DNA of 64,000 bases from Naegleria gruberi (lineage: Eukaryota). The stretch is from the NCBI GenBank assembly GCA_000004985.1, contig GG738905.1; one strand, 5' to 3'. Below the pieces are notes generated by a model. It was not told where the DNA came from, did not search any database, and saw only the letters and a program-made list of their open reading frames with translations. Within the stretch, counting starts at the first letter, position 1. Every line of letters begins with the position of its first letter. Positions 2,841 to 58,700 of this stretch are shown here, in pieces. The position numbers were made by a program, and so were the translations under genes.

Positions 2841-5066
2841 ATGGGAAATAAATTTGCCAAAGGTGCTAGGTTTCGTCGACCAAATCAACAAGACGAAACC
2901 TCTCAAAGAAATGATGAAGCAACCTCTCCCTCCCAATATCGTATTGTGAGTACAGAAGAAATTCAAGCCAATTCCTCTCCTTCCAATCATCATCATCATC
3001 CCAACAATAATAATTCCAATTTTTCTTCTTCTGACTCACCAACACTCCGAAAATCCAAATCAAATCGAACAAGAAGTTTGAGTACCTCCACAACAACAGG
3101 TGGTAACAATGGTAGTAGTAGTAGTGGTAGCAATAATGCTCGTTCAAGTCCAGGTACCTCTCCGACAAGTCATCATCAACGTTTCCTTCTGACCAACAAT
3201 CATACAACAACAACAACTCCAAGCCTTGCATCCTCTTCATCAACAACAACAAAAAATTCCCCGCCAAATTCTACAGTAATTTCCAATCAGAAAAAAAAGA
3301 GTGGTGTTGGCGGTTCGTTCAGGTTCCGATCATTGAGAGGGAATAATTCGGCATCGGCATCATCATCGTCTTCATCATCGAGTAAGAAGAGTAAGAAGAG
3401 TAATGAGGGAAAGCATAATGAAAAGCAACAACCTCAATTGCAATTGAATGATTCGAATTTGAATTCATCAGTGCAAAATAATCAACATCATCACCATAAT
3501 AGAACAATATCAAATGGTTCGACACATAGTGGTGCAAGTGGACATTTTCCTCTACTTTCATCATCATCGACTGGAATGATACAAACTGGTGGACATTTTC
3601 ATAGAAAAACTTCAAGTCAGCCTCCACCTAATTGGGCTACTTTTAATTATCAAAATTCTGGAAGTTTATTGTCTCCTAATGGAACTGGTAATCCATTGGT
3701 TAGTTTACAAATGTCTCCAAGTCCTTCATCATGGCAGAATAATTACTTTATCTATAATTATGCAATTTTATCATCATCAGCTCCACAACCTTCCACAGTG
3801 AATAGAAGTTTATCTAGCTCACCAATGAGTGTTTCTTCAGCTGCTTCAAGTGTTAGTAATTCGAGAGATCAATTAGTGGAATATCAATTGATGGAATTCT
3901 CACCACAACAACGATTGGTTCATGAAAAACTGAGGGCCATGTTTCCTTCCATGAAAAATGTGCCTGACTATTTCTTGGCCTATTTTTCATTGGTTCTTTC
4001 AGATGAAATAACTTTGAAGGAGACAATCTTTTCAAATGTCAGTGATATTTCATTCTACTTGGAAATGCAATCCAAGATTGAAGAATTATTCCTCGAAGAA
4101 GAGGAAAGACTCGGAAAATCACCTAGTACTTCTAGAATGGATCATTTCACTCCTAAATCACCAGCTTATCATAGTGTTACCAATGACAATCTTCTTGCGA
4201 ACACTACTGAAGATGGTGACATTAACTATTCTTCCAATTTTTTCAATTCTAATGATGCCTATGAAAATATTACCTCTAACCTAAATTTGAACGACTCATA
4301 TTCTAGTAATAACACTTCTACCGAAAAAGGTGATATTCCTTCCTCAATTATCAATTTCCAATTAGATTTCCTAAATCCTTTCCACATGATGAGCAGAAGT
4401 GAGCTCACTGTTCGCTTAATCATTCTACCAAAAATTTTCAAAAATGTTTTCTATGCAAAGACTGAAGTTGCTCAATTAATGTCGCCTGTATTTTCTACTA
4501 GAAATAATTTACACTTCCGAGATTCCTTTATTCACAACGACGAGTTTGTTGTATGTATCATGATTGGATTTTGGGTACTCGAGTACATTCCATCCTCTGG
4601 AATTATTGTACCAAAACTTATTTATGGACCATCAGAGCTATTTTCATATATACAGAGTATTCCTGTAATTGCCACTCTGAATAATAGTGATGGACACGTA
4701 ATGAGTGCACTCATTTCTACAATAGTTAAATGGAATTGTGAAAAGAAGAATCCAAACACTAACTCTATGACGTTCATTGATGACTTACTAAAGACACTAC
4801 ACATTAACTTTAAATATGCCCATAATTCAACACTTGAAAATTGGAGGAAGGGTAACTCATCTCTTGAATGGACCATACCAAATCATTACAACCTGCTAAA
4901 GGATCCTAGTGTAAACACTACTAGTTCTCGAGTTTTGAAATTCAAATCAATTGAAGATTATGAATTATCAGTGCCTAAAATTGTTCACACCCTGAGTAGT
5001 GAATTGTTAATTTCTAATGGAGGAGTTTTTGATTATCTAAGTTGTCTCCAAAAATGTTTCTCGTAA
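2841..5066 (+). CDS. Hypothetical 741-aa protein with a S/T/N/H-rich N-terminal half and a possible N-myristoylation start, MGNKFA. Single exon.
   Basis: Long uninterrupted ORF. The protein begins MG, with N-K-F-A following. The N-terminal half is low-complexity and the C-terminal ~350 aa is not. I recognise no domain. Confidence 0.5.
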   Translation: MGNKFAKGARFRRPNQQDETSQRNDEATSPSQYRIVSTEEIQANSSPSNHHHHPNNNNSNFSSSDSPTLRKSKSNRTRSLSTSTTTGGNNGSSSSGSNNARSSPGTSPTSHHQRFLLTNNHTTTTTPSLASSSSTTTKNSPPNSTVISNQKKKSGVGGSFRFRSLRGNNSASASSSSSSSSKKSKKSNEGKHNEKQQPQLQLNDSNLNSSVQNNQHHHHNRTISNGSTHSGASGHFPLLSSSSTGMIQTGGHFHRKTSSQPPPNWATFNYQNSGSLLSPNGTGNPLVSLQMSPSPSSWQNNYFIYNYAILSSSAPQPSTVNRSLSSSPMSVSSAASSVSNSRDQLVEYQLMEFSPQQRLVHEKLRAMFPSMKNVPDYFLAYFSLVLSDEITLKETIFSNVSDISFYLEMQSKIEELFLEEEERLGKSPSTSRMDHFTPKSPAYHSVTNDNLLANTTEDGDINYSSNFFNSNDAYENITSNLNLNDSYSSNNTSTEKGDIPSSIINFQLDFLNPFHMMSRSELTVRLIILPKIFKNVFYAKTEVAQLMSPVFSTRNNLHFRDSFIHNDEFVVCIMIGFWVLEYIPSSGIIVPKLIYGPSELFSYIQSIPVIATLNNSDGHVMSALISTIVKWNCEKKNPNTNSMTFIDDLLKTLHINFKYAHNSTLENWRKGNSSLEWTIPNHYNLLKDPSVNTTSSRVLKFKSIEDYELSVPKIVHTLSSELLISNGGVFDYLSCLQKCFS

Positions 5067-5230
5067 GTATTATTATTTCTAAGATATTTAATTTAATGAT
5101 TAATGTTGTATTTCATTATCTGATCAATAACATTTATAGAGAGGACTATTTCATGTTACAAACAATTAGAGCCTCATTACAATTAAAAGAATTCGCCCAC
5201 TTGAAATAAATGCAGTTCAAATTTTGTTTA

Positions 5231-7715: not shown

Positions 7716-8471
7716 ATGTGTTGGTCTCTCAGAGCTTCCTTGTTCTTTTCCATCCTAGGAGGATTGATGACTTTGGATCAGATTCGAAGAACACTTGCTA
7801 TTCGAAAGGAGTGGAGAGCACGGAGTATATCTCAAGTATTAATGTACCTGTCGTATACCTTGATGGAATTCCTACAATTTCTACAGTATTGGTTTGGAAT
7901 TGAAGGAACGTGTGGCACCACTTCAAATATTTTCCTGTCAATTGTGGCTCACTTTCTAATTTGGACTCAACCACTGGCACACAATTATTGGTGTTTAAGG
8001 AATACAGCGAAGGGAAGAAGTACTTTCAGATATGCTTTGTTTTGCTCCTTCTCCACCCTAATTCTGGCAAGTATCAGTTTGGCAATGGGTTATTTTCAAG
8101 TTGGTGGATTTGGTGTTGGAATTGAAAATGACAATCTGGAAGGTGTTCCAGGAAATGTTTTGGGAATTGAAATTCAAAATGTGAATACCAAATTGTGTTC
8201 AATGCAAGGACCTAATCATTTATATTGGATGTTTCCCTATCATCCAATATGGGGACATGGCATTTCGTGGTTTACTTGGTTGATGGTTGCTGCATTTCCT
8301 CATTTCTTTAGATATTCAGTTAAGGATAATGATTTCTTTGGAAAGAGTTGGGTGATGGGAAGTGTTGTCGTTGGTGGATGGTTAGTTGCCTTGGCAGTCA
8401 CTTTGACAATTGGCAATTTCCATGAGACACCTTCTTATTGGTGCCTTATTTCAGTTCCATGTTTGGTGTAG
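7716..8471 (+). CDS. Hypothetical polytopic membrane protein of 251 aa with W/F/G-rich TM segments.
   Basis: Several hydrophobic helices are read from the translation: LFFSILGGLMTL, FLSIVAHFLIW, LFCSFSTLILASISLAMGYF, VVVGGWLVALAVTLTIG. The N-terminus may lie upstream or be spliced. Confidence 0.4.
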   Translation: MCWSLRASLFFSILGGLMTLDQIRRTLAIRKEWRARSISQVLMYLSYTLMEFLQFLQYWFGIEGTCGTTSNIFLSIVAHFLIWTQPLAHNYWCLRNTAKGRSTFRYALFCSFSTLILASISLAMGYFQVGGFGVGIENDNLEGVPGNVLGIEIQNVNTKLCSMQGPNHLYWMFPYHPIWGHGISWFTWLMVAAFPHFFRYSVKDNDFFGKSWVMGSVVVGGWLVALAVTLTIGNFHETPSYWCLISVPCLV

Positions 8472-8542
8472 CCCTATGTGTCTGCATTCTTCAATCCTAA
8501 ACGATTCATTGTTCGAGAGGAATTGTATGTCAAAATGCCAAA

Positions 8543-8920
8543 GTCTTCATCTTCTGAATATGATTCAAAGAAAGTTGCCTAATTTTTGAGGGATGAGAAT
8601 TGATGGATTGAAAGCCTCCATCTCATTGAGAATGAGCATTGACAATAATAGTGGAATCATTCAATGTCGATTTGAAACTATTTCAAATAAATTTCGAGTT
8701 GGAATCTGCTACTTTTTTTAAGTGTTTGGTGATAAACGTTGGGTCAATTTGTTACTTTCCATTTTGAGGAGTCATGCAGATTTCTTGAATGAAAGTTGAA
8801 GTGAGTACCCCACTCACTAAGGTTTATTGTAAACTACACACACCAATAAATATGAAAAATTTTTGTCTGAAAAAATTTCAACACAGCAAGATGTTAAAAG
8901 ACAAGATTTACGCTCTTATT
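8543..8920 (+). repeat. Left terminal repeats of the DIRS-like element: A at 8543..8793 followed directly by B at 8794..8920.
   Basis: Near-identical copies sit at the right end in the order B' (12797..12925) then A' (12976..13240), with a 50-N gap between them. Confidence 0.75.
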
Positions 8921-9900
8921 AAAGAACACTCCAGTGATGTTATGGCTAGTATGCCTCCAAACACCATCAAGATGGTATTGGATCTACTTGGCGAAAACCC
9001 TGAAGACAAAGAAAGATGGCTAGAAATTGTTGAAGACGCAGGTGGTGCGTTATTCAACAACTTCTCAACAAAAGCAGAGGCCCAGGAATACTTTACCAAA
9101 GGTATTAAGAAGTTAGCAAAGAGTGGTAAAGTTGCTTCCACTAGAAGTAAGACTACCTCTTTGCAAGAGGCAAGCACTCCAAGTAACATGAATAAGACTT
9201 CTTCTTCATCTCAAATGGCTACCCCAAAGGTTTCTAGCGTTAGTCAGGTTAGAGAGTTCGTCCAAAAGAGAAGGATTGAAGAAACAGACGACAAGGAGTG
9301 GAAGAGAAGAGGTGTTATTCTTGACCCAGCTGATTTCCTTGAAAAGCCAGCTACTTGGAATCTCCCAAGTAGACAACAATGGGAAGAGATGAACCGCCAA
9401 ATCAACATTTTAGTGGTCGGTAAACAGGTTGAAGAAAAGGTTAAGGAAACGTTTCCGCCATTGAGTACCAATAACCAAGCATTGAAAGCAGAGTACGACA
9501 CCTTGAAAGAGGTCGCAGGAAGCGTCTACGGTGCTGCATTGTTGAACAAGGATGAGTCAGTTGCAGACAAGTTGGAGGGTGCCATTGAATATATCAAGGA
9601 GAAAGCGGTACACCTCAAGCTCGTTTCCTTCGACAAGCATCTTGCGGAGAAGGTTCGTATCATTCGTTCAGATAAGACCTGGAGAGAACAGGCTGACCTT
9701 ATTAAGGTCGCCTCCAAGTTGATGAAGGTAGAAAGTGAAGTGATTAAGAATGGAAACTTGCCAGTCATCAATAATATGACTAAAGCTGTTGAAAAGGCAA
9801 GAGATACCTATCCTGTAGCTTCCCACTGTTTCAAATGCGGAGAAGTTGGACACTTGGCAAAGAATTGCAATAAATCCACTTCCAAATACGTCTCGGTAAG
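8789..9900 (+). CDS. DIRS-like element Gag-like protein with a C-terminal CCHC zinc knuckle. This is the 5' part of the 1321-codon open frame.
   Basis: CFKCGEVGHLAKNC lies at about 9829..9870. The upstream ~340 aa are charged and helical, typical of retroelement capsid-like proteins. Confidence 0.6.
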
Positions 9901-10034
9901 TACTATTTTTCGATCCTCCAGATGCGGCAGAGATACGGGAGAGGAAACAAGCTGTTCACTCCATTTCGAATGCTTGGAAGGAGTGGAAGAGAAGAGGAGC
10001 GAAACCTTCGATAATAAGGCTCCTGAAAGAGGGT

Positions 10035-11852
10035 GTGAAAGTGCTTCCTTCAACAGGGTTCAAAAGATCAGTGGAGACAGTAAATTCAGCCAAGTTCTCA
10101 ATAAGGGAACTACAGTGGTTGGAAAGGGAGATAAATTTGCTAAAGAAGATTGGTGCATTAGAAGCTTGTCAGAATGCGGAAGTAGTGGCCAAGTTCAGAT
10201 TGGTACCAAAGGGAGAACAGTACAGATTGATTGTAGACTTGAGACCCTTAAACAAATATTGCCTCATCCCCAAATTCAAGTACAACACATTGAAGAGATT
10301 CTTAGAGTTTATTCCAGAATCTGGAACCATGTTCCTATCATCATTCGATTTGAAGTCTGGGTACCACCAGCTAAAAGTCCACAAGGACTCAAGAAAATTT
10401 TTTGCTATCAACTATTTTGGACAATTATTACAGTTTACTGTGTTGCCCTTTGGCTGGAATGGATCACCATAGAACTTCACTTTGGTAATGAATCAAGCGG
10501 TAATTTTGATGGAATCACCACTCATGCGTCTTTCCAATTATTTGGACGATGTGCAAATAGTGAATGTAGTGGAAGAAACAATAGCCGTACAGAATGTAGA
10601 AATATGCAGGGAAGATGCAAACCAGCTTGGTTTAGTGTTAGAGAGAAGAAAGAGTGTAATGAAACCAATGACAGAATTAGTAGTGTTGGGGTCATGTGTG
10701 AATATTATAACGAAGACACTATCAATGACAGAGGCTACGATAGTGAAGATTACGAATATGATAAAATCAGTACTCACGCGGATTCATTTAGGCAAAACAG
10801 TGTCGGTAAGGAAGATGAGTTCGATAAGCGGGACAGTGATTGCTTATTTGGAATGTTTTATCCCAGCAAGGGTGATGCTTGCTCCCATATTCGCCTTAAT
10901 AGCAAAAACAGTAGTGAAGTACGGATGGAAAGCTTCGGTATTCGTAAGGGATGTCAGGGTCATTCACAACCTTCAATGGATTATTGCAAATATAAGGATG
11001 TGGAATGGAAAACACTTCCAGAGGCCATCATTGGTCTATTACTTCTGGACAGATGCATCAGATTGGGGTTGGGGAGCATATTTCGAGGAGAAGGACTTGA
11101 AGATAGGTGGTCAATGGTCGGAACAAGAAAGAAAACTTCATATCCATATAAGAGAAATGTTAGCGGTGTTAAGAGCTTTGATGGAATGGAAGCATTTGTT
11201 CGAAGAGAGAAAGATCATTATTTATGTGGACAATTGGATTATCTTACACAACATTTTAAAGGGATGGGCAAAAAGCCCACTTATGAGAAGGTTAATTATG
11301 AGCTTCTGGAGAATTATATTCAGCCACAATATAACTCTATTGTCTGTGGAATGGTTACCGTCGGAAGAGAATTATATGGCAGACGGGATCAGCAGGGGGA
11401 TAATGAACGATCCCACGGATTGGGAGATGACTATTCCAGCATTTCAAAGGATTCAGAAGGAACTTCTAGTGGAAATAGGATTCGACAGATTCGCTTCCCA
11501 CGTAAGCTTCAAAGTCAAGCCTTACATGGTAAGAGAAAGAAATTTCAGAGGAGAGAAAGCAGACGCCTTCTCTACATTATGGACAGAAGAGGTTGTAAAT
11601 TTGTGTTGCGTCCCATTCAACTTAATAGGAAGAGTATTGAAACATTGCGAAGAATCAAAAGCTATAATGGTGTTGATTCATCCAGTATGGAAGAGAAGGT
11701 TTTGGTGGCCAATTCTAGAAAAGTATCGTATAAGGAGTGTATCGATGAATGGAAAGGACTTCTTTACAAAGTCCAATACAGGTCACGTAGAACCTTGCAA
11801 GAAATCTTGGCTATTAGAGGCAAGTCTGATAGATTGTCGAACTCGGAACTAA
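10035..11852 (+). CDS. DIRS-like element Pol with RT, RNase H and a methyltransferase-like domain. It lies in the +1 frame relative to gag and YR and is interrupted by an in-frame TAG at 10470..10472.
   Basis: The two frame-0 ORFs 10035..10472 and 10482..11852 are colinear with a canonical RT. The stop falls between motif B (LPFGWNGSP) and motif C (YLDDVQIV). The RNase H catalytic motifs are intact. Confidence 0.7.
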
Positions 11853-12754
11853 TTAGAATTGCCAAGGAGGTCATTAGCTCTCACAGATACAAAGAGAGCA
11901 CTGACAAGAACTACAGAAGATATTGGGTGCGCTTTATTAGATTTAACATTGAAAGAAAGGCTTGTTTTCCTCCTTCAGAAGATAATCTTATTGCTTTCCT
12001 GACGAACATGTTCCTTAAAACACCGTCAGGAAGCAACTGCAGTGCAGCATATGCTGCTATCATGGCATTTGCCAAGAAATTTAGTTTAGATCAGGGAATG
12101 CGAGGAGATAATATTCGAGAAGTTTTAAATGGAATGACTAATCTTTCAAGAGTGGCTAGTGAGAAGGAAAGAAATGCTTGGCAACTAGAATTTATTAGAA
12201 AGTGGGTGAGCATAGGTAGGAGAAGCGTGTCTGACAGAGAATTTGTATTATACACATCTATGATGATCATAGGTCTACGAACTATGTTGAGAGGAAGTGA
12301 ACTTGGTGAACTAAAGACCGAAGATGTTCAATTTCTTCGCTTGGAGAATGGTAAAATGGCAGTCAAATTGAAATGTAGAAGAGTTAAATCTAGTCAGGGT
12401 AGAATGGGTAGAATTATGTGTATAGAGAGTACAGGAAATGATTTGTGCCCAGTATCTTGGTTGAATAGGTGGATGGTGTATAGAGATCAAGGTGATTACT
12501 TATTTGGTAATAGTAAGGCTTTGACTACAATCGACATTTCGTGGATACTGAGATTTGTGGCGTCAGTTATTGGAGTAGATGGATGTTTCTCCTCTCATTC
12601 TTTAAGAATTGGAGGTGCTAATGAAGCAGCTCAAGCAGGTTTTTCTCTCGCTGCTATTCAAGCTTTAGGCAACTGGTCTTCAAATGCGGTTGACAAATAT
12701 TTCAGATCTGAGTTTTTCTATAGTAGAAACGTATCAAAAGAATTGGGTTTCTAG
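11830..12754 (+). CDS. DIRS-like element tyrosine recombinase (YR). This is the 3' part of the long frame-2 ORF.
   Basis: N-terminal SAM-like motif YRRYWVRFIRF. Box I R in LRGSELGELKTEDV. H-x-x-R in HSLRIGG. Catalytic Y in AVDKYF. Confidence 0.7.
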
Positions 12755-12796
12755 TAGGGGCTCATTGTTTTCGTATTTATTGGTGTGTAGTTGGAT

Positions 12797-13240
12797 AAAT
12801 TGAAGTGAGTACCCCACTCACTAAGGTTTATTGTAAACTACACACACCAATAAATATGAAAAATTTTTGTCTGAAAAAATTTCAACACAGCAAGATGTTA
12901 AAAGACAAGATTTACGCTCCCACCANNNNNNNNNNNNNNNNNNNNNNNNNNNNNNNNNNNNNNNNNNNNNNNNNNAAAGTCTTCATCTTCTGAATATGAT
13001 TCAAAGAAAGTTGCCTAATTTATGAGAATGGATGAGAATGGATGGATTGAAAGCATTTCATCTCATTGAGAATGAGTATTGACAATAATAGTAGAATCAT
13101 TCAATGTCGATTTGAAACTATTTCAAATAAATTTCGTTATTGCAATCTGCCACATTTTTTAAGTGTTTGGTGACAAATGTTGGTCAGTTTGTTATTTTCC
13201 ATTTTTGAGGTGTCACGCCGATTTCTTGAATGAAAGATTT
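12797..13240 (+). repeat. Right terminal repeats of the DIRS-like element, B' then A', separated by a scaffold gap.
   Basis: B' is a direct copy of 8794..8920 and A' a direct copy of 8543..8793. B' is preceded by the 19-nt inverted repeat tatttattggtgtgtagtt / aactacacacaccaataaata, which can form a hairpin. Confidence 0.7.
12926..12975. other. Assembly gap of 50 N inside the right terminal repeat of the retroelement.
   Basis: A run of N. Confidence 0.95.
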
Positions 13241-49335: not shown

Positions 49336-52300
49336 TTAGAATCGATTAGATGAGGTAATTAGTAATTCCAAAGCTTCAACCCAATCACTACGATCTTCTT
49401 CTGAGGCAGCATTGAAAACAAATGTTCTATTGAGGGTTGATAATTTAAAGCAATTAGCCCTTCCGGCTTCCTTTTCAATTTCAGGTGCCATTTGAATACG
49501 TGTTCCTCTGAGTGCAACACTCTTAATTGGTTTTGGATCTCCTTGATTCTTATAATAGGAAAGCTGGTATTGGTTTGCTTTACCACCTTCGAGTGGTTCA
49601 AGTGCCATGAAACGCTTCTTCCACGATTTGAATCCACCACCTTGTTTAATCAAGTAACCATTCTTGTTCTTTGCCTTTTCAAATTTCAAATCTGATGAAC
49701 CACCACTACTGAGAATTGATTCACTTCTCGATTTGTTTGATGAAATGGAACCAATAGCAGATCCTCTCACACTCGTCTTTACAACAGCAGATCTGCCAGT
49801 GGTGGTTGAGGATGAAGCTGAACTACCACCCGACTTTTCTGAACCCATGAGTGGATTAATTGTAACTGTAAATTCAGGTTCATAATCAACATCGTCAGAC
49901 ACAGATGAAGTTATTGATGAATTAGCAGTAGAAGATGAGGTAGTCATTGGATTTGAAGCAACAACAGTTGTACGGAGACGAACTGTGGCACGTTTCTTTT
50001 GGGTTGTTTTGGTTTCATCATCATTTGAAGAGTGGGAAGTGAACATTCCACGAGACTTGTTTGGAGAACTCAATTGAATATCATCTTCATAGTAATCAGT
50101 GGATTCCTCTGAGAATGATGAAGTACTTCCTCTACTGATGTTGTTGGTATTACTATTATTGGTGTCATTATTAGATGTGGCACTTGTTGGAGGAGGAGAG
50201 GTCATAATGATGGAACCACTTGTACCAATAACACGGGAATTAGTAGGAGTGGAAGGTGATGGTGATTGGTTGTTTGAAGCTTGTTGTGGAGTTGTGTTTG
50301 GAGTGGCAGCTTCAGTTGGTGGTTTTACAACAACAGTTCTCCTCACTACACGAACAATCTTCTTTGGTGCACCAGTTCCATTTTCATCAGTTTCACCACT
50401 AATGGATGGACGAGGTTGTGAATTTTCAGGTGGAAGAGCAACATGTTTTGGTTCTGAAAGTCTTGGTTGTTGTTGTTCTGGTTCAGTTGGTTTGACTTTC
50501 TCTGGTTCTTTCTGTACAACAACTGGTTTGGCTTTTGCAAGTTCTTCCTTTTCCTTCTCGAGGGTTGCAACTTTTTGCTCTTGTTCAAGTTTTTCACGCA
50601 TGACACTTTGAAGTTGTTTCTTTAATTCTTCAACTTCAGAGGTGAGCTCAGAAACAGTAGAATTCAAGACATAAACTTGCTCTTCAGTTTGTTTGATTGA
50701 TTTTTGGCTATCCTTTTCCAATTTTTCATATTTTGATTTGTATTGAGAAAGTTCCTTCTCCAACTTTTTAGCATGATCATTGGCAGAGTCAAACTTGCCT
50801 TCCAATTCAGCTTTGGAGACTTCAAATTCATCCTCCTTGTCTCTCAATTGTTGCTCCAAATCATTGATGGTGTTTTGCTTTTCTTCCATTTGATCTGAAA
50901 TTTCCATAATTTCATTTTGTAAGGTGAGCTTTTCTTGCTTTTGTTTCTTGACTGCTTCCTCCAAATCTTGTTGATACTTCTTTTGGAGTTCTTCAATTGT
51001 TACATTCTTTTGGTTTTCAATTTCAGAAATCTTTCTTTCTTGTTGCTTGATTTGTTGACAGTGCTTTTCATTAATTTCCTTGATCTTTTCATTGGTTTCA
51101 ATTTCGAATTGAGTTTCAACACGTTTACGCTCATCTTCAACAGCCTTATTCTTTTCCAATTCTAAGGAGCTCTTTGTTTGTTGGATAAGAATTTGGGATT
51201 TTTGTCGTTCTTCCTTCAAGGAAATGTCCAATTCCTCAGCCTTGGTCTTGGCTTCACTCCATTCATTTTTGATAGCAGCAATTTCACTCTCCTTGTCTTC
51301 AATCTTCTTTTCGGCTTGAGACGTTTTTTCTGCTTGTTCAGAGACAAGTTTTTTCACTTGAGAAACTTCCAATTCGTGAGCAGATTTCAAAGTTTGTTCA
51401 AGAGTTTCCAATTCCTTCTTGTGTGAAACTTTGAGTTGGTTGGTGGTTTCAACTTGAACTTCCAAATCTGATTTGACAGAACTCAATTCCTGTTGGGTTG
51501 ATTGAAGACTTGCCTTGGTTGTTGCTACCAGTTCCTTCTCATTTTGGAGATCCTTCTTGATTTGATCACGTTCTTCAACCAATTTTTGGTATTGACTCTC
51601 CTTCTCAGAGATGATAGAATTCAATGATTCAATCTTGGTTTGAAGTTCCTTACGTTCTACATTGAATGATTCGACACTAGAGAGATTTGAAGTAACCATT
51701 GAGTTCTTATCTGATAATTCCTGCTCCAATTTACTCTTTGTAGTTTCGAGAGCAGTAACCTTTTCTTCGTAGGTTGTTTTGATGGTTTCCAATTCTGACT
51801 TGGATTCTCTCAATTTCTTTTCAGCGGCCTCAAGATCTTGAGTTAACTTGTCAATCTTTCCTTGAGCATTGGATTTTTCTTCAGACATATTCTTGTTAAA
51901 CTCATCTTGCAACAATTGAACTTGTTGTTGGTGTTGTTTTTGTTGGGAGATTTTTTCACTTTCAAAAGTCTTTTCCAATTTTTCTTTTGACTTTTCGGCA
52001 GCTTCCAAACTGGCAACAGCCTGTTCATGCTTTTGCTTCCATTCTAAGAGTTCTGCAGTTTCAGTGGCGAGCTTACCCTTGATTGTTTCAAGTTCTTCAG
52101 AAATGGATTCCTTCTCCTTACCAATCTTTTCCAAATTGTGTTGTAAGCTGGCAATTTCTTGTTGGAGCTGATTCTTTTGTTTAAGTTTTTCATCTTCCAA
52201 TTGAGTGACTGTTTCTGAAAGTTCCTTGATTCTTTGCAAGTTTGTGTTATTTTGACTGTCGAGAGCTGTTGATGATTCAACATTCTTTTCTTGCAAGTTA

Positions 52301-55300
52301 TTGATTTGTTGTTGGAGTAAATTAGCTTCCTCAGCTTTGGTCTTGAGTTTGTTCTCTGTATTGCTCAACTGCTCTTGCAAGGAGATGATATTTTGTTTGT
52401 ATTCACTTTCCTTCTTGGAAGCCTCTTCTAAACTTGTCTTGATTTGAGTAATTGTACTCTCTGACTTGACCTTTTCAGTAGTGAGGGTTTCATTTTGCTT
52501 TTCAGCTCTTTCAGCACGATCACGAAGTTTGATAGCTTCTTCCTTCTTTTGTGAGAGTTGGGATGAGAGATCTTCAATTTCTTTCTTGAGCTCAGTGTTG
52601 CTGTTAGTCAAGTTTTCAATAGCAATTGAATTTTCTGAGATTTTAGCATTCAAGATTTGAATTTCCTTATTCTTTTCTTCAATTGTCTTTTCGAGTTTGG
52701 AAATTGATTCTTGGGAGGATGAAAACTTTCTCTCCAAATCAGAAACCTTGGATTGTTCTTCGGAGAGCTTGGTTTCACTCTCTTTGAGTTTAGTTTCTAG
52801 AGAGGACTTTTCAGACTTAAGAGTGGAAATTTCTTGTTCCTTTGTTGAAATTGTATTTTGCAAGGTTGAAATAGATTCCTTTCCACTTTCAATACTCTTG
52901 TTGAGAGCTTCAATTTCCTTCTCCTTTGTAGCGATTTGGTTGTTAAGAGTATCAATAGAGGTCTTATTTTGTGAGATGGTTGTTTCCAAATCCTTCTTCA
53001 ACTTTCTTTCTTCCTCTAATTGATTTTCAACATTTTCCAAATCTGATTTAGATTGTTTGAGGTTGTCCTTCAAGGTATTAATGTTATTCTTGAATTGTTC
53101 AACTTGATTACCCAAATCGTCGTTTTCCTTTTGAATGGTCGAAATCTTTAACGATGATTCTTGTTCTTGCTTTTCTAAATTTACAATCTTGAGAGACAAT
53201 TCGCTGGCAGCTTGCTTTTGCTTGTCAAGTTCTTGTTTGAGGTTGTTCTTTTCCTCTAGTGTCTTGTTCATATCATCCTTCAATTTGGAAATTTCCTTCT
53301 TGGCTTCTTCTAATTGGTTATTGATACGAGTCATGTTCTTTTCATTTTCAATTTGAATGAGAGAGAGTTGATTCTTGGCTGTTTCAATAATGGATGGTCC
53401 CATAGTATCAAAAAGAGCGCTTTGGGCAGCTGTACACAGTTGCTTGACATCAGTTGTGAGTTTTTCTCTAACTTCAGCTTTAGCACGTTTAATTTGTTTG
53501 GAGAGAAGTACAATCTTGGAGGAAACAGATACCTTATATGATTCATGATTAGATTCAAGCTTTTTCTTTTGTTCTGAGAGGTTTTCAACTTCTTTCAACT
53601 TTTCAGAGATGGTATTGTTCAATGTTTGTAATTCCTCGATTTGTTTCTTAATCAAATTTTCATCATCACTATTCTTCTTTTTCAACTCTTGTTCTGACAA
53701 TTTAATGGCATTCAATTGAGTTTGAAGAAGTTCGATTTGATCCTTCAAGGATGTATTGACTTGATTCAATGATTGATATTGAGATGACAATTCTTCTAAG
53801 TTGCCTTGGAGCGTCTTAATTTGTTGTTTTTGAGCATGATATTCCTTCTCAGTTTCTTGCAATTTCTTCAAATCAGTAGCAACAGATGCTGTTATTTTTA
53901 ACAATTTCAATAATTCAATTCAATTAATAATAATATACTTACAAATCAATTGATCGGCTGTGTTATCAATAGTCTTGGTGATTTGTTCTACAGGTACATT
54001 ATCTTGTTTGTCGGAGACTTTTTCGTTTGCACCTTCTTCTGATTCAGTTCCATAAGGTGTTAAATTTTCAGATTTTACACCCCTGATTACAACATTCTTC
54101 AATGTTGAATCAGCAAACTCTAAATTGTCTGTTGTAAACTGAGCAGCATGTGGAATGGCAGGAGAACAATTTACAACTGTTGTTGTACAAGTGTTGTGCA
54201 ATGAACGAGAATAGAGAATAGCAGATAAACTCGAAGAATAGAATTGACTATCATCTTCTTGTGCCTTTGGATCATTAATCAATGTGCACAAATCATAGAA
54301 GGTCAAGTGACCATTTTCCAATTCTTCCATTTCTTCTTCAGAGACACCAACCAATGGAGATTCCAAATCTATAACAGTTAATTTGCTGTTGACTACCTTT
54401 TGCTTATTATTGTCCTTTTGTTGCACAGTTAATTCTACAAATAAGTTGGAGGCAAACTTGGTTTCCTTCTTTACCTTTTCCAATTTTCTCTTTCCGATAC
54501 AAGATGCCAAAATTTCCAACAATTCATCATCAGCACCAACATATTGTTCAATCAGGCCATTAATTTCAATCTCTTGAGTTTCTTCCTGAAGTAAACATTC
54601 CAAACCATTGAATTCTTTAATAATTAAAAAATTATTCAAAAATCCAGGATGATATGTTATTGTTGTTGTTGTTGTTGAAGAAGAAGAAGAATATTCCGAG
54701 ATGAATTATATTATCAGGATGAAGTAAATTTGTTTTTTACAGTAAATTTTAAAAACAAACAAAAAGGGCGCCAAACAATTAAAACATGTAAAATAATGAC
54801 TTACCTTCAGAGCCTTGTTGTTGCACGTGAGTTTCATTCAACAAATCGCAAATAATACCACTTCCACTCCAAACCTCATAGACACTCACCTTGATAGTAA
54901 ATTCCAAACTCTCATCACTCTCCACAATAGCATCAAATACACCTCTAACAAAACGAGGTAAAACACCATCATTTTCCTTTTCTTCTTGCCAATCAATGAT
55001 AGAGGCTGGATTAACAGCTTCCGAACCAAACATGGTGAAGGTTTTACCAGACTTTGGTGGAGCTCCCCATGAGAGGAAGGTTACATTCTTACCAGACATG
55101 AAGGTGGAAATCATAGGCTTGGCTACTTCATCATATATTTCCTGTTGAGAGGTGTTCATGTTGAAAACACGATCAAATTGATACTCTTTAGGTTGTTCCA
55201 CACCATACTATAGTATTATTGTTATTGTTGTTAGCATTATTATTATTTAGTAGCATATGTTGGAGAAAAGAGATGAAGGAGAAATTATTGTTCATAGTAT

Positions 55301-58260: not shown

Positions 58261-58700
58261 TTCAAGAATATAAGCTGCGGATTAAACAATTGTGTATGAT
58301 TTGCATTTTTTAAAATCAAAAGAACATGTTTTGGCGGGAAGCTTGGTAATTGGTTTATTGGACTAAATTTCACGCAATAAATCATCTTCATCAGGAGATT
58401 CATCTAGCCACTGAGATTCATCTACCTTATTCCTTTTTTTTTNNNNNNNNNNNNNNNNNNNNNNNNNNNNNNNNNNNNNNNNNNNNNNNNNNGCGGATTA
58501 ACAATTGTGTATGATTTGCATTTTTTTAAAATCAAAAGAAAATGCTTTGGCGGGAAGCTTATTGGACTAAATTTCACACAATAAATCATCTTCATCAGGA
58601 GATTTACTTGTTCATTTGGAAATTCATCGAGCCACATCAGTTCTGAGGTTGGAGACAACTTGGGAACCTGTGGTGCTGCAGTCTCTCTACCTTATTACTT
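58261..58700. repeat. Local tandem duplication of about 180-230 bp flanking a scaffold gap, immediately 3' of the tRNA-Asn gene.
   Basis: 58261..58443 (gcggattaaacaattgtgtatgatttgc ... ctaccttattcctttttttt) is repeated at 58493..58700 (gcggattaacaattgtgtatgatttgc ... ctaccttattactttttttgtg) with a few indels. Confidence 0.7.
58444..58492. other. Assembly gap of 49 N.
   Basis: A run of N. Confidence 0.95.

What the first reader, a model, noticed from the sequence alone, without database searches (positions are those of the whole stretch)
8543..13240. Intact-looking DIRS-like tyrosine-recombinase retrotransposon with an unusual A-B ... B-A direct-repeat architecture
The element carries every DIRS-group hallmark: gag-CCHC, RT, RNase H, an MT-like domain, and a YR with the R..HxxR..Y catalytic residues. 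Its terminal repeats are neither LTRs (A-B ... A-B) nor the inverted ITRs of DIRS-1. On the left, repeat A (about 250 bp) is followed by B (about 127 bp). On the right, B' directly follows the YR stop and A' comes after a 50-N gap. All copies are direct. This looks like a variant of the split direct repeats of PAT/Ngaro-type elements, or an unresolved junction of two copies. This family and its termini may be undescribed in this genome.
Basis: partly seen in the sequence, partly recalled or inferred. Interest (0 to 1): 0.6.

Follow-up and report, generated by a model that had tools for sequence, protein, structure and literature searches.

The report
Naegleria DIRS-type retrotransposon, misassembled flank
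This is a recent, nearly intact tyrosine-recombinase retrotransposon in Naegleria gruberi, and its odd "A-B ... B-A" repeats are most likely an assembly artefact: "A" is host DNA, apparently written twice across a scaffold gap, and the element's own repeats fit the known split-direct-repeat pattern.

Summary
The proposed architecture is not.

- **Source.** The window is Naegleria gruberi NEG-M.
- **Repeat A is host DNA.** A (8540-8795) begins with the last 13 codons and stop of the host DUF5765 gene (7716-8582).
- **A' is probably the other allele.** A' (12976-13236) starts exactly at the edge of the 50-N gap. It differs from A at 25 of 263 aligned positions, while B and B' are 120/120 identical. 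A second gap in the window (58443-58492) shows the same diverged duplication. A' is therefore most likely the empty-site allele of a heterozygous insertion, placed after the gap by the assembler.
- **The element proper.** It starts at 8796 and is a DIRS-order retrotransposon with gag-CCHC, RT, RNase H, an MT-like domain and YR.
- **Its termini fit split direct repeats.** A1 = 8796-8915, B1 = about 12755-12799, A2 = 12800-12919. B2 is not in the assembled sequence. Relatives from N. lovaniensis and a metagenome contig support this layout.
- **Not intact.** RT carries an in-frame TAG at 10470-10472.
- **Side observations.** A conserved hairpin of about 95 nt spans the B1|A2 junction. Gag and YR share one 1321-codon frame that overprints all of pol.

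DIRS-like sequences were already reported in N. gruberi in 2011. Interest is low to moderate.

The parts
7716..8582 (+). Host gene NAEGRDRAFT_81526 (DUF5765 family). It is annotated as 251 aa because of an in-frame TAG at 8469-8471. The same frame continues to the TAA at 8580-8582, matching 287-aa relatives.
   Evidence: Exact match to EFC38710. Pfam DUF5765. The 287-aa relatives P0012 and P0013 end in ...KKVA. ENA contig L002 has TTG where the window has TAG.
8540..8795 (+). It is host DNA: the last 13 codons plus stop of the host gene (8540-8582) and 213 nt of its 3' flank. It sits on the haplotype that carries the insertion.
   Evidence: Alignment with L002 and with A'. Coding part 43/43 identical to A'; flank has 16 mismatches and 9 gap columns in 220.
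8796..8915 (+). It contains a small hairpin (8800-8818), an AATAAA, and the first 25 nt of gag counted from the ATG at 8891.
   Evidence: 120/120 identical to 12800-12919. The repeat starts exactly where homology between A and A' ends.
8891..9898 (+). Gag-like region with a CCHC zinc knuckle (about 9824-9871). This frame stays open as far as 12754.
   Evidence: Pfam zf-CCHC, E = 1.3e-5. ORF 8789-12754.
9900..11852 (+). pol frame: RT (about 10209-10550, YLDD), RNase H (about 11022-11237) and an MT-like domain (about 11412-11732). It is interrupted by an in-frame TAG at 10470-10472 and has no ATG before the RT core.
   Evidence: Pfam RVT_1 and RT_RNaseH. 54% identity to P0023 over 531 aa. The MT region aligns to the Dam-hit stretch of P0022. 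Stop position.
11702..12754 (+). Tyrosine recombinase: SAM-like N-domain (about 11858-12079) and catalytic domain (about 12257-12700), with the stop at 12752-12754. It is in the same frame as gag.
   Evidence: Pfam Phage_integrase E = 3.8e-10 and Phage_int_SAM_4. R, HxxR and Y are invariant in alignment A3.
12755..12799 (+). Proposed B1 of the split direct repeat. The right boundary is firm and the left boundary is uncertain. 12768-12792 is an imperfect inverted copy of 12838-12862 and 8834-8858.
   Evidence: Inverted repeats I2 and I3. Homologous segment in N. lovaniensis L001 (11368-11407) is repeated exactly at 12084-12123. The motifs CTCATTGTT.TCG and TTGGATAAA are shared with L006 and L007.
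12768..12862 (+). Long hairpin spanning the B1|A2 junction: 25-nt outer arms, an inner 7-bp stem across the junction, and an apical stem-loop AGTGAGT-ACCCC-ACTCACT.
   Evidence: DNA fold -25.4 kcal/mol, z = -7.7. Equivalent hairpins in L001 (z = -6.2) and L005 (z = -4.85) have different sequences.
12800..12919 (+). It is A2, the internal copy of the left terminal repeat.
   Evidence: 120/120 identical to 8796-8915.
12920..12975 (.). Six unexplained bases (CCACCA) followed by the 50-N scaffold gap. The remaining right end of the element (spacer and B2) is expected here but is not assembled.
   Evidence: No second copy of B1 anywhere in the window. CCACCA is not the start of B1. The complete relative L009 has a spacer of about 102 nt between A2 and B2.
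12976..13236 (+). It is a second, diverged copy of the host gene's 3' end and flank, running straight into host downstream sequence. It is best read as the empty-site allele placed after the gap.
   Evidence: It begins at the first base after the gap. It encodes the same 13 codons and stop. The same signature appears at gap 58443-58492.

Best explanation
A DIRS-order, structurally PAT-like retrotransposon inserted 213 nt downstream of a host DUF5765 gene on one haplotype of diploid N. gruberi NEG-M.

**Element layout.** The element begins at 8796 and has split-direct-repeat termini.
- A1 is 8796-8915.
- The coding region carries gag, then pol (RT-RNase H-MT) in another frame, then YR in the gag frame.
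- B1 is about 12755-12799 and A2 is 12800-12919.
- An unassembled spacer and B2 should follow.

**Origin of A and A'.** A' is the same host flank from the empty haplotype. The assembler could not merge the two alleles, wrote them in series and put 50 N between them.

**Mechanism, inferred from DIRS-order biology.**
1. A transcript that lacks the extreme ends is reverse-transcribed.
2. The internal B1-A2 junction supplies the template that restores and joins the ends.
3. The tyrosine recombinase inserts the circular DNA without a target-site duplication.

In this Naegleria clade B is also complementary to the interior of A. The 3' end (B2) could therefore pair with the 5' end (A1) of a single strand and bring the termini together. 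This copy carries a nonsense codon in RT, so it probably cannot supply its own RT.
For: **A and A' are host DNA.**
- Window ORFs are exact N. gruberi proteins.
- 8540-8582 and 12976-13018 both encode KSSSSEYDSKKVA*, the C-terminus seen in 287-aa relatives and in ENA contig L002. The flank of L002 also aligns to A and A'.

**The duplication is an artefact.**
- A' starts at the first base after the gap.
- A and A' differ at 25 of 263 columns, against 0 of 120 for B and B'.
- At the second 50-N gap, the post-gap contig again starts with an 86%-identical copy of the pre-gap end, with SNPs and a 12-nt indel.
- Naegleria is described as a heterozygous diploid (PMC9928731).

**Identity of the element.** Pfam and homology results.

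**Split-direct-repeat layout.**
- A1 and A2 are identical, and A2 abuts B1.
- In N. lovaniensis L001 a 40-nt segment right after the YR stop is repeated exactly 716 nt downstream. Its right boundary is homologous to the start of the window's A2.
- L009 is a complete relative with gag-CCHC, RT, a weak Dam hit and YR. It has A1=A2 (166 nt) and B1=B2 (91 nt), both 100% identical. It also has a spacer between A2 and B2, and its A repeat ends a few codons into gag, as here.
- The literature defines split direct repeats as A1 ... B1-A2-B2 and PAT-like elements as MT plus such repeats (PMC9210276, PMC4157794).

**Hairpin.**
Against: - B2 is not in the assembled sequence, so B1=B2 cannot be shown for this copy.
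- The six bases after A2 (CCACCA) match neither B1 nor gag.
- No read-level data or second assembly was available to prove that A and A' lie on different haplotypes.
- 9.5% divergence is high for alleles.
- PMC3266345 assigned the N. gruberi sequences to DIRS1-like, not PAT-like, by similarity.
- No reference-based RT or YR phylogeny could be run.
- The relatives that support the layout are 26-54% identical, and L001 is 5'-truncated.
Confidence: 0.8

Rival explanations
1. The A-B ... B-A arrangement is the true terminal structure of a new kind of DIRS-group element, with A as part of the element.
For: A and A' are direct repeats that flank B and B' symmetrically.
Against: - A begins inside the coding sequence of a host gene that exists without the element in another strain's contig and in a paralogue.
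- A and A' are 9.5% diverged while B and B' are identical.
- The 'start' of A' is just a contig edge.
- Relatives show no such outer repeat.
Confidence: 0.02
2. A and A' are a real duplication of at least 256 bp of host DNA on one chromosome. It is either an old tandem duplication into whose junction the element inserted, or a duplication made during insertion.
For: The scaffold as deposited places both copies on one molecule. No reads were available to contradict it.
Against: - A duplication made at insertion should be as identical as B and B' (0/120 against 25/263, p = 7e-5).
- An old tandem duplication requires the element to have landed exactly at the unit boundary.
- The same pattern at an unrelated gap points to assembler behaviour.
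- Tyrosine-recombinase integration makes no target duplication (PMC3266345).
Confidence: 0.1
3. The element is DIRS1-like in the strict sense. B' plus the preceding inverted segment is the internal complementary region, and an inverted right terminal repeat is hidden in the gap.
For: - N. gruberi sequences were assigned to DIRS1-like by similarity (PMC3266345).
- There is a long pol/YR ORF overlap, a DIRS1-like hallmark.
- 12768-12824 is roughly the reverse complement of the first 67 nt of the element.
Against: - That complementarity is imperfect (a mismatch, an indel and G-T pairs) and offset from the terminus, whereas ICRs are exact complements of the ends (PMC7192593).
- The exact repeats here are direct (120/120).
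- No inverted copy of the left end exists in the assembled sequence.
- L009, a relative with MT, is an unambiguous split-direct-repeat element.
Confidence: 0.07

Closest known systems
PAT-like elements (PAT1 of Panagrellus redivivus and relatives; DIRS order)
   Same: - gag, RT-RNase H-MT and YR coding content.
- Split direct repeats with A1 at the 5' end and B1-A2 after the YR.
- Direct, exact repeat copies.
   Different: - B2 was not observed in this copy.
- Phylogenetic placement with PAT references was not tested.
- There is a long pol/YR ORF overlap, and the B1|A2 junction hairpin was seen only in the three Naegleria-clade copies. I found no published description of such a hairpin in the papers read.
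DIRS1-like elements (DIRS-1 of Dictyostelium discoideum)
   Same: - Same domain set including MT.
- Long overlap between the YR ORF and pol.
- Internal sequence complementary to a terminal repeat.
- Presumed tyrosine-recombinase integration of a circular intermediate without target duplication.
   Different: - No inverted terminal repeats were found.
- The internal complementarity is imperfect and lies inside the repeat, not at its ends.
- The exact repeats are direct.
Ngaro / VIPER elements
   Same: A1 ... B1-A2-B2 split direct repeats located downstream of the YR.
   Different: Ngaro and VIPER lack the MT domain and usually lack ORF overlaps (PMC3266345). This element has both.
DIRS1-like sequences reported in Naegleria gruberi (Piednoël et al. 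2011, PMC3266345)
   Same: Same genome and same element order. This copy is probably one of the 7 sequences in 6 families they detected.
   Different: Those sequences were described as carrying too many frameshifts or indels for phylogeny, and I found no description of their termini. This copy has a single stop in pol and resolvable left and internal repeats.

Membership tests
DIRS order (tyrosine-recombinase retrotransposons) | Reverse transcriptase and RNase H of the Ty3/Gypsy-like type | tested here: met
   Pfam RVT_1 and RT_RNaseH. YLDD motif present. 54% identity over 531 aa to P0023.
DIRS order (tyrosine-recombinase retrotransposons) | Tyrosine recombinase (R...HxxR...Y) instead of a DDE integrase, and no aspartic protease | tested here: met
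   Phage_integrase and SAM-like hits. Catalytic residues invariant. No integrase or protease family hit in the pol pieces or in the 1287-aa gag/YR-frame translation.
DIRS order (tyrosine-recombinase retrotransposons) | No target-site duplication | not testable with these tools
   The right element/host junction lies in the unassembled gap.
PAT-like (DIRS order, MT plus split direct repeats) | Methyltransferase-like domain after RNase H | tested here: met
   No direct Pfam hit. However, pol aa 314-420 aligns to residues 514-620 of P0022, which hit Pfam Dam at E = 1.9e-7. Many relatives also carry PF05869.
PAT-like (DIRS order, MT plus split direct repeats) | A1 = A2: the left terminal repeat is copied directly after the coding region | tested here: met
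   8796-8915 matches 12800-12919 at 120/120.
PAT-like (DIRS order, MT plus split direct repeats) | B1 = B2: the segment preceding A2 is repeated at the right terminus | tested here: inconclusive
   No second copy in the assembled window, and the expected position is the gap. It is met in relatives L001 (40/40) and L009 (91/91).
PAT-like (DIRS order, MT plus split direct repeats) | RT/YR clusters with PAT reference elements in a phylogeny | not tested
   No named reference sequences were obtainable with the tools. Published similarity tests placed the N. gruberi sequences nearer to DIRS1-like (PMC3266345).
DIRS1-like (strict sense) | Inverted terminal repeats | tested here: not met
   No inverted copy of the left end exists in the assembled sequence, apart from one 21-25-nt imperfect arm. 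The gap could still hide sequence.
DIRS1-like (strict sense) | Internal complementary region exactly complementary to both extremities | tested here: not met
   12768-12792 pairs with the interior of the repeat (8834-8858), with a mismatch and an indel.
DIRS1-like (strict sense) | Long overlap of the YR ORF with pol (present in about half of described members) | tested here: met
   0 stops in the gag/YR frame over 650 pol codons, against 31-39 expected. The minimum was 16 in 20,000 shuffles.
Ngaro / VIPER | Absence of the MT domain | tested here: not met
   An MT-like domain is present.
LTR retrotransposon | Two complete LTRs at the extremities, a DDE integrase and a protease | tested here: not met
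   No integrase or protease hits. The repeat includes the gag start and is preceded by a 45-nt segment that behaves as B1.

The most novel reading that the evidence does not exclude
Naegleria-clade DIRS-order elements may use a hybrid end-joining device. The split-repeat segment B is complementary to the interior of A, forming a conserved hairpin of about 95 nt over the B1|A2 junction. In a linear single strand this would let the 3' end (B2) pair with the 5' end (A1) and position the termini for circularisation. That would combine the split-direct-repeat logic with the ICR logic. They may also express Gag and YR from one frame that overprints the whole of pol.
Probability: 0.3. Interest if true: 0.5.

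Novelty: new member of a known kind. Interest (0 to 1): 0.25.

Why it matters
- **It removes a false lead.** The unusual repeat architecture is best explained by a heterozygous insertion and how the draft assembly handled it.
- **It shows a reusable signature in this assembly.** A post-gap contig that begins with a diverged copy of upstream sequence marks the artefact, and the pattern recurs in this window.
- **It defines the element's structure.** This copy gives the clearest view so far of a DIRS-order element in Heterolobosea. It is nearly intact, recently inserted and probably polymorphic. It has split direct repeats where published similarity tests implied DIRS1-like affinity.
- **It points to experiments.** The conserved junction hairpin and the complete gag/YR-over-pol overlap are testable leads on how these elements rejoin their ends and express their proteins.

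Tried and rejected
- **Other copies in the window.** Self-BLAST found none.
- **Public metagenome contigs.** A protein-pattern scan with a YR alignment found no confirmed relative. An exact 24-mer from the left repeat had no match.
- **YR homologue search.** It returned only 10 relatives and none above 51% identity, so no second copy of this family was reachable.
- **Paralogue look-up.** The contig for the N. gruberi paralogue P0013 is not on record.
- **Related contigs L003 and L004.** They proved to be degenerate fragments next to a kinase gene and gave no information on termini.
- **Short intron after gag.** A GTAAGT...CAG intron (9896-9921 or 9896-9930) was considered as the link from gag to pol and rejected, because both versions give the wrong frame (reasoned).
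- **Origin of CCACCA.** Its only other occurrence is at 10364 inside RT, and its reverse complement occurs only at 11703.
- **Consensus fold of the three junction hairpins.** It failed because MAFFT could not align them. Only the single-sequence folds are used.
- **Junction hairpin in L009.** Not significant, so the hairpin is not a general feature of split-direct-repeat elements.
- **LTR reading of B and B'.** Rejected on domain content and on the repeat containing the gag start.
Full report
**Source and observation**

Several window ORFs are exact matches to Naegleria gruberi NEG-M proteins EFC38710 to EFC38715 on a 290,827-bp scaffold. The window has 34% G+C and three N runs of exactly 50.

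- A 8540-8795 matches A' 12976-13236 at 90.5% over 262 columns.
- B 8796-8915 matches B' 12800-12919 at 120/120 identical.
- All copies are direct.

The domains are real as well.
- zf-CCHC, RVT_1, RT_RNaseH, Phage_integrase and an N-terminal SAM-like domain all hit.
- R, HxxR and Y are invariant in a six-sequence YR alignment.
- The MT-like region aligns to the part of a relative that hits Pfam Dam.

**What A really is**

The ORF just upstream (7716-8471) is the annotated 251-aa protein NAEGRDRAFT_81526, a DUF5765 family member. Its 90% cluster contains 287-aa proteins that continue for 36 more residues and end in ...KKVA.

An ENA metagenome contig from a close strain (L002) carries the intact 287-aa gene. 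It has TTG where the window has TAG (8469-8471). The reading frame then runs to a TAA that corresponds to window 8580-8582.

The first 43 nt of A are therefore the last 13 codons and stop of a host gene. The rest of A is that gene's 3' flank, which also aligns to L002. A' encodes the same 13 codons and stop, then the same flank, and then runs into unrelated host sequence.

**Why A is probably present twice only in the assembly**

- **Contig edge.** A' begins at the very first base after the 50-N gap, so its 'left boundary' is a contig edge.
- **Unequal divergence.** A and A' are identical over the 43 coding bases. They differ at 16 mismatches and 9 gap columns in the 220-column flank. B and B' have no difference in 120 (Fisher p = 7e-5). 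A duplication created by the insertion should be as young as the element's own repeats.
- **Same pattern at another gap.** At 58443-58492 the post-gap contig starts with an 86%-identical copy of the last ~165 nt of the pre-gap contig. It shows SNPs and a 12-nt indel. This is what an assembler produces when two diverged alleles overlap but cannot be merged.
- **Biology.** Naegleria is described as a heterozygous diploid (PMC9928731).

The simplest reading is a heterozygous insertion.
- Contig 1 is the filled allele: gene, A, then the element as far as its internal repeat.
- Contig 2 is the empty allele: A', then downstream host sequence.
- The scaffolder placed them in series.

This step is an inference. 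No reads were available to confirm it.

**The element proper**

Homology between A and A' ends at 8795/13236. The B/B' identity begins at 8796/12800. The element therefore starts at 8796 with TTGAAGTGAG.

After the YR stop (12752-12754) come 45 nt (12755-12799), then the exact copy of the first 120 nt. Six bases (CCACCA) and the gap follow.

This is the 5' part of the published split-direct-repeat layout, A1 ... B1-A2-B2 (PMC9210276; PMC4157794).
- A1 = 8796-8915.
- B1 = about 12755-12799.
- A2 = 12800-12919.
- B2 is unassembled, and no second B1 copy exists in the window.

**Support from relatives**

- **N. lovaniensis L001 (YR 43% identical).** A 40-nt segment starting 8 nt after the YR stop recurs exactly 716 nt downstream. 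Its right boundary is homologous to the start of the window's A2...ACAACAAA|TTCGGTAG... against ...GGATAAA|TTGAAGTG..., both followed by A[CT]T[AG]AGGTTT[AG]TTGTAA.
- **L006 and L007 (46-54% identical).** They share the post-stop motif CTCA[TA]TGTT[TA]TCG. L006 also shares TTGGATAAA at the B1 end.
- **L009 (pol 26% identical; gag-CCHC, RT, a weak Dam hit and YR).** It is a complete split-direct-repeat element.
  - A1 4974-5139 equals A2 9348-9513, and B1 9258-9348 equals B2 9616-9706, all at 100% identity.
  - Its A repeat ends 13 nt into gag. Here the A repeat ends 25 nt into gag.
  - About 102 unique bases separate A2 from B2.

The spacer in L009 offers a plausible explanation for the CCACCA after the window's A2. 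That point remains unresolved.

**Classification**

- MT plus split direct repeats is the structural definition of PAT-like elements.
- Ngaro and VIPER are excluded because an MT-like domain is present.
- No inverted terminal repeat was found.
- The internal complementary stretch is imperfect and pairs with the interior of the repeat, not its ends. ICRs are exact complements of the ends (PMC7192593). The strict DIRS1-like layout is therefore not met.
- Piednoël et al. (PMC3266345) already reported 7 DIRS-like sequences in 6 families in N. gruberi. They assigned them to DIRS1-like by similarity and called them too damaged for phylogeny. I found no description of their termini.
- I could not run a reference phylogeny.

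**State of this copy**

- pol (frame 0, open from 9900 to 11852) has one in-frame TAG at 10470-10472, inside LPFGWNGSP*NFT. Relatives have Tyr (L003) or Phe (L006) at that position. The copy is therefore not intact.
- pol has no ATG before the RT core. It must be reached from the gag frame by a frameshift or a similar event. This was not resolved.
- The identical A1 and A2, together with the apparent heterozygosity, indicate a recent insertion.

**Two side observations**

1. **Complete ORF overlap.**
   - The gag/YR frame has no stop across all 650 pol codons, against 31-39 expected. The minimum was 16 in 20,000 codon-order or synonymous shuffles.
   - Gag and YR therefore lie in one 1321-codon ORF that overprints pol.
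   - Long pol/YR overlaps are a known DIRS1-like trait (PMC3266345). Here the overlap covers all of pol.
   - Relatives L007, L001 and L003 also show long overlaps.
2. **Junction hairpin.**
   - 12768-12862 folds into a hairpin of about 95 nt across the B1|A2 junction, at -25.4 kcal/mol and z = -7.7.
   - L001 (z = -6.2) and L005 (z = -4.85) form equivalent hairpins from different sequences.
   - L009 does not.
   - B is thus complementary to the interior of A, so B2 at the 3' end could pair with A1 at the 5' end of a single-stranded intermediate and align the termini.
   - This is an inference by analogy with the experimentally supported role of the ICR in DIRS-1 (PMC7192593).

**Verdict**

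The DIRS-order identity is supported. The A-B ... B-A architecture is best explained as an assembly artefact laid over an ordinary split-direct-repeat element.

This is a new, well-preserved member of a known kind in a genome where such elements were already noted. Interest is low to moderate, carried mainly by the junction hairpin and the complete ORF overlap.

Noticed in passing
window 8469-8471: The host DUF5765 gene NAEGRDRAFT_81526 has an in-frame TAG where a close environmental strain has TTG. The annotated protein is therefore 251 aa instead of 287. This is either a real nonsense allele on the insertion-bearing haplotype or a sequencing error.
   Followed up: partly
window 58277-58400 vs 58493-58604 (gap 58443-58492): The contig after this 50-N gap starts with an 86%-identical copy of the end of the contig before it, with SNPs and a 12-nt indel. 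This looks like an unmerged allelic overlap, the same artefact as at the element.
   Followed up: yes
window 8789-12754 vs 9900-11852: The gag and YR domains lie in one 1321-codon open frame that overlaps the entire pol frame. It has 0 stops where 31-39 are expected. How pol is translated is unclear, since there is no ATG before the RT core.
   Followed up: partly
L001 10017-12123 (N. lovaniensis) and L005 2240-3517 (ENA contig): Both loci hold only the end of the MT region, the YR and the right-end repeats, next to ordinary host genes. They may be 5'-truncated copies or a distinct YR-only derivative. In L001 the 676 nt between the two 40-nt repeats contain GGGATGCCT-rich tandem repeats.
   Followed up: partly
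L006 167-2719 (JGI contig, protein P0023): In this 54%-identical relative, one ORF runs from gag-CCHC for about 100 codons in the frame equivalent to the window's gag/YR frame, and then continues in the RT frame. This hints at a frameshift region near window 10170-10240, or at an indel in that contig.
   Followed up: no
window 12920-12925: The six bases CCACCA between the A2 repeat and the gap match neither B1 nor gag. They may be the start of an A2-B2 spacer, or a poor-quality contig end.
   Followed up: partly
window 50001-54000: There is a strong negative AT skew (about -0.31) over the region of a 1524-codon minus-strand ORF (49336-53910). It was not examined.
   Followed up: no
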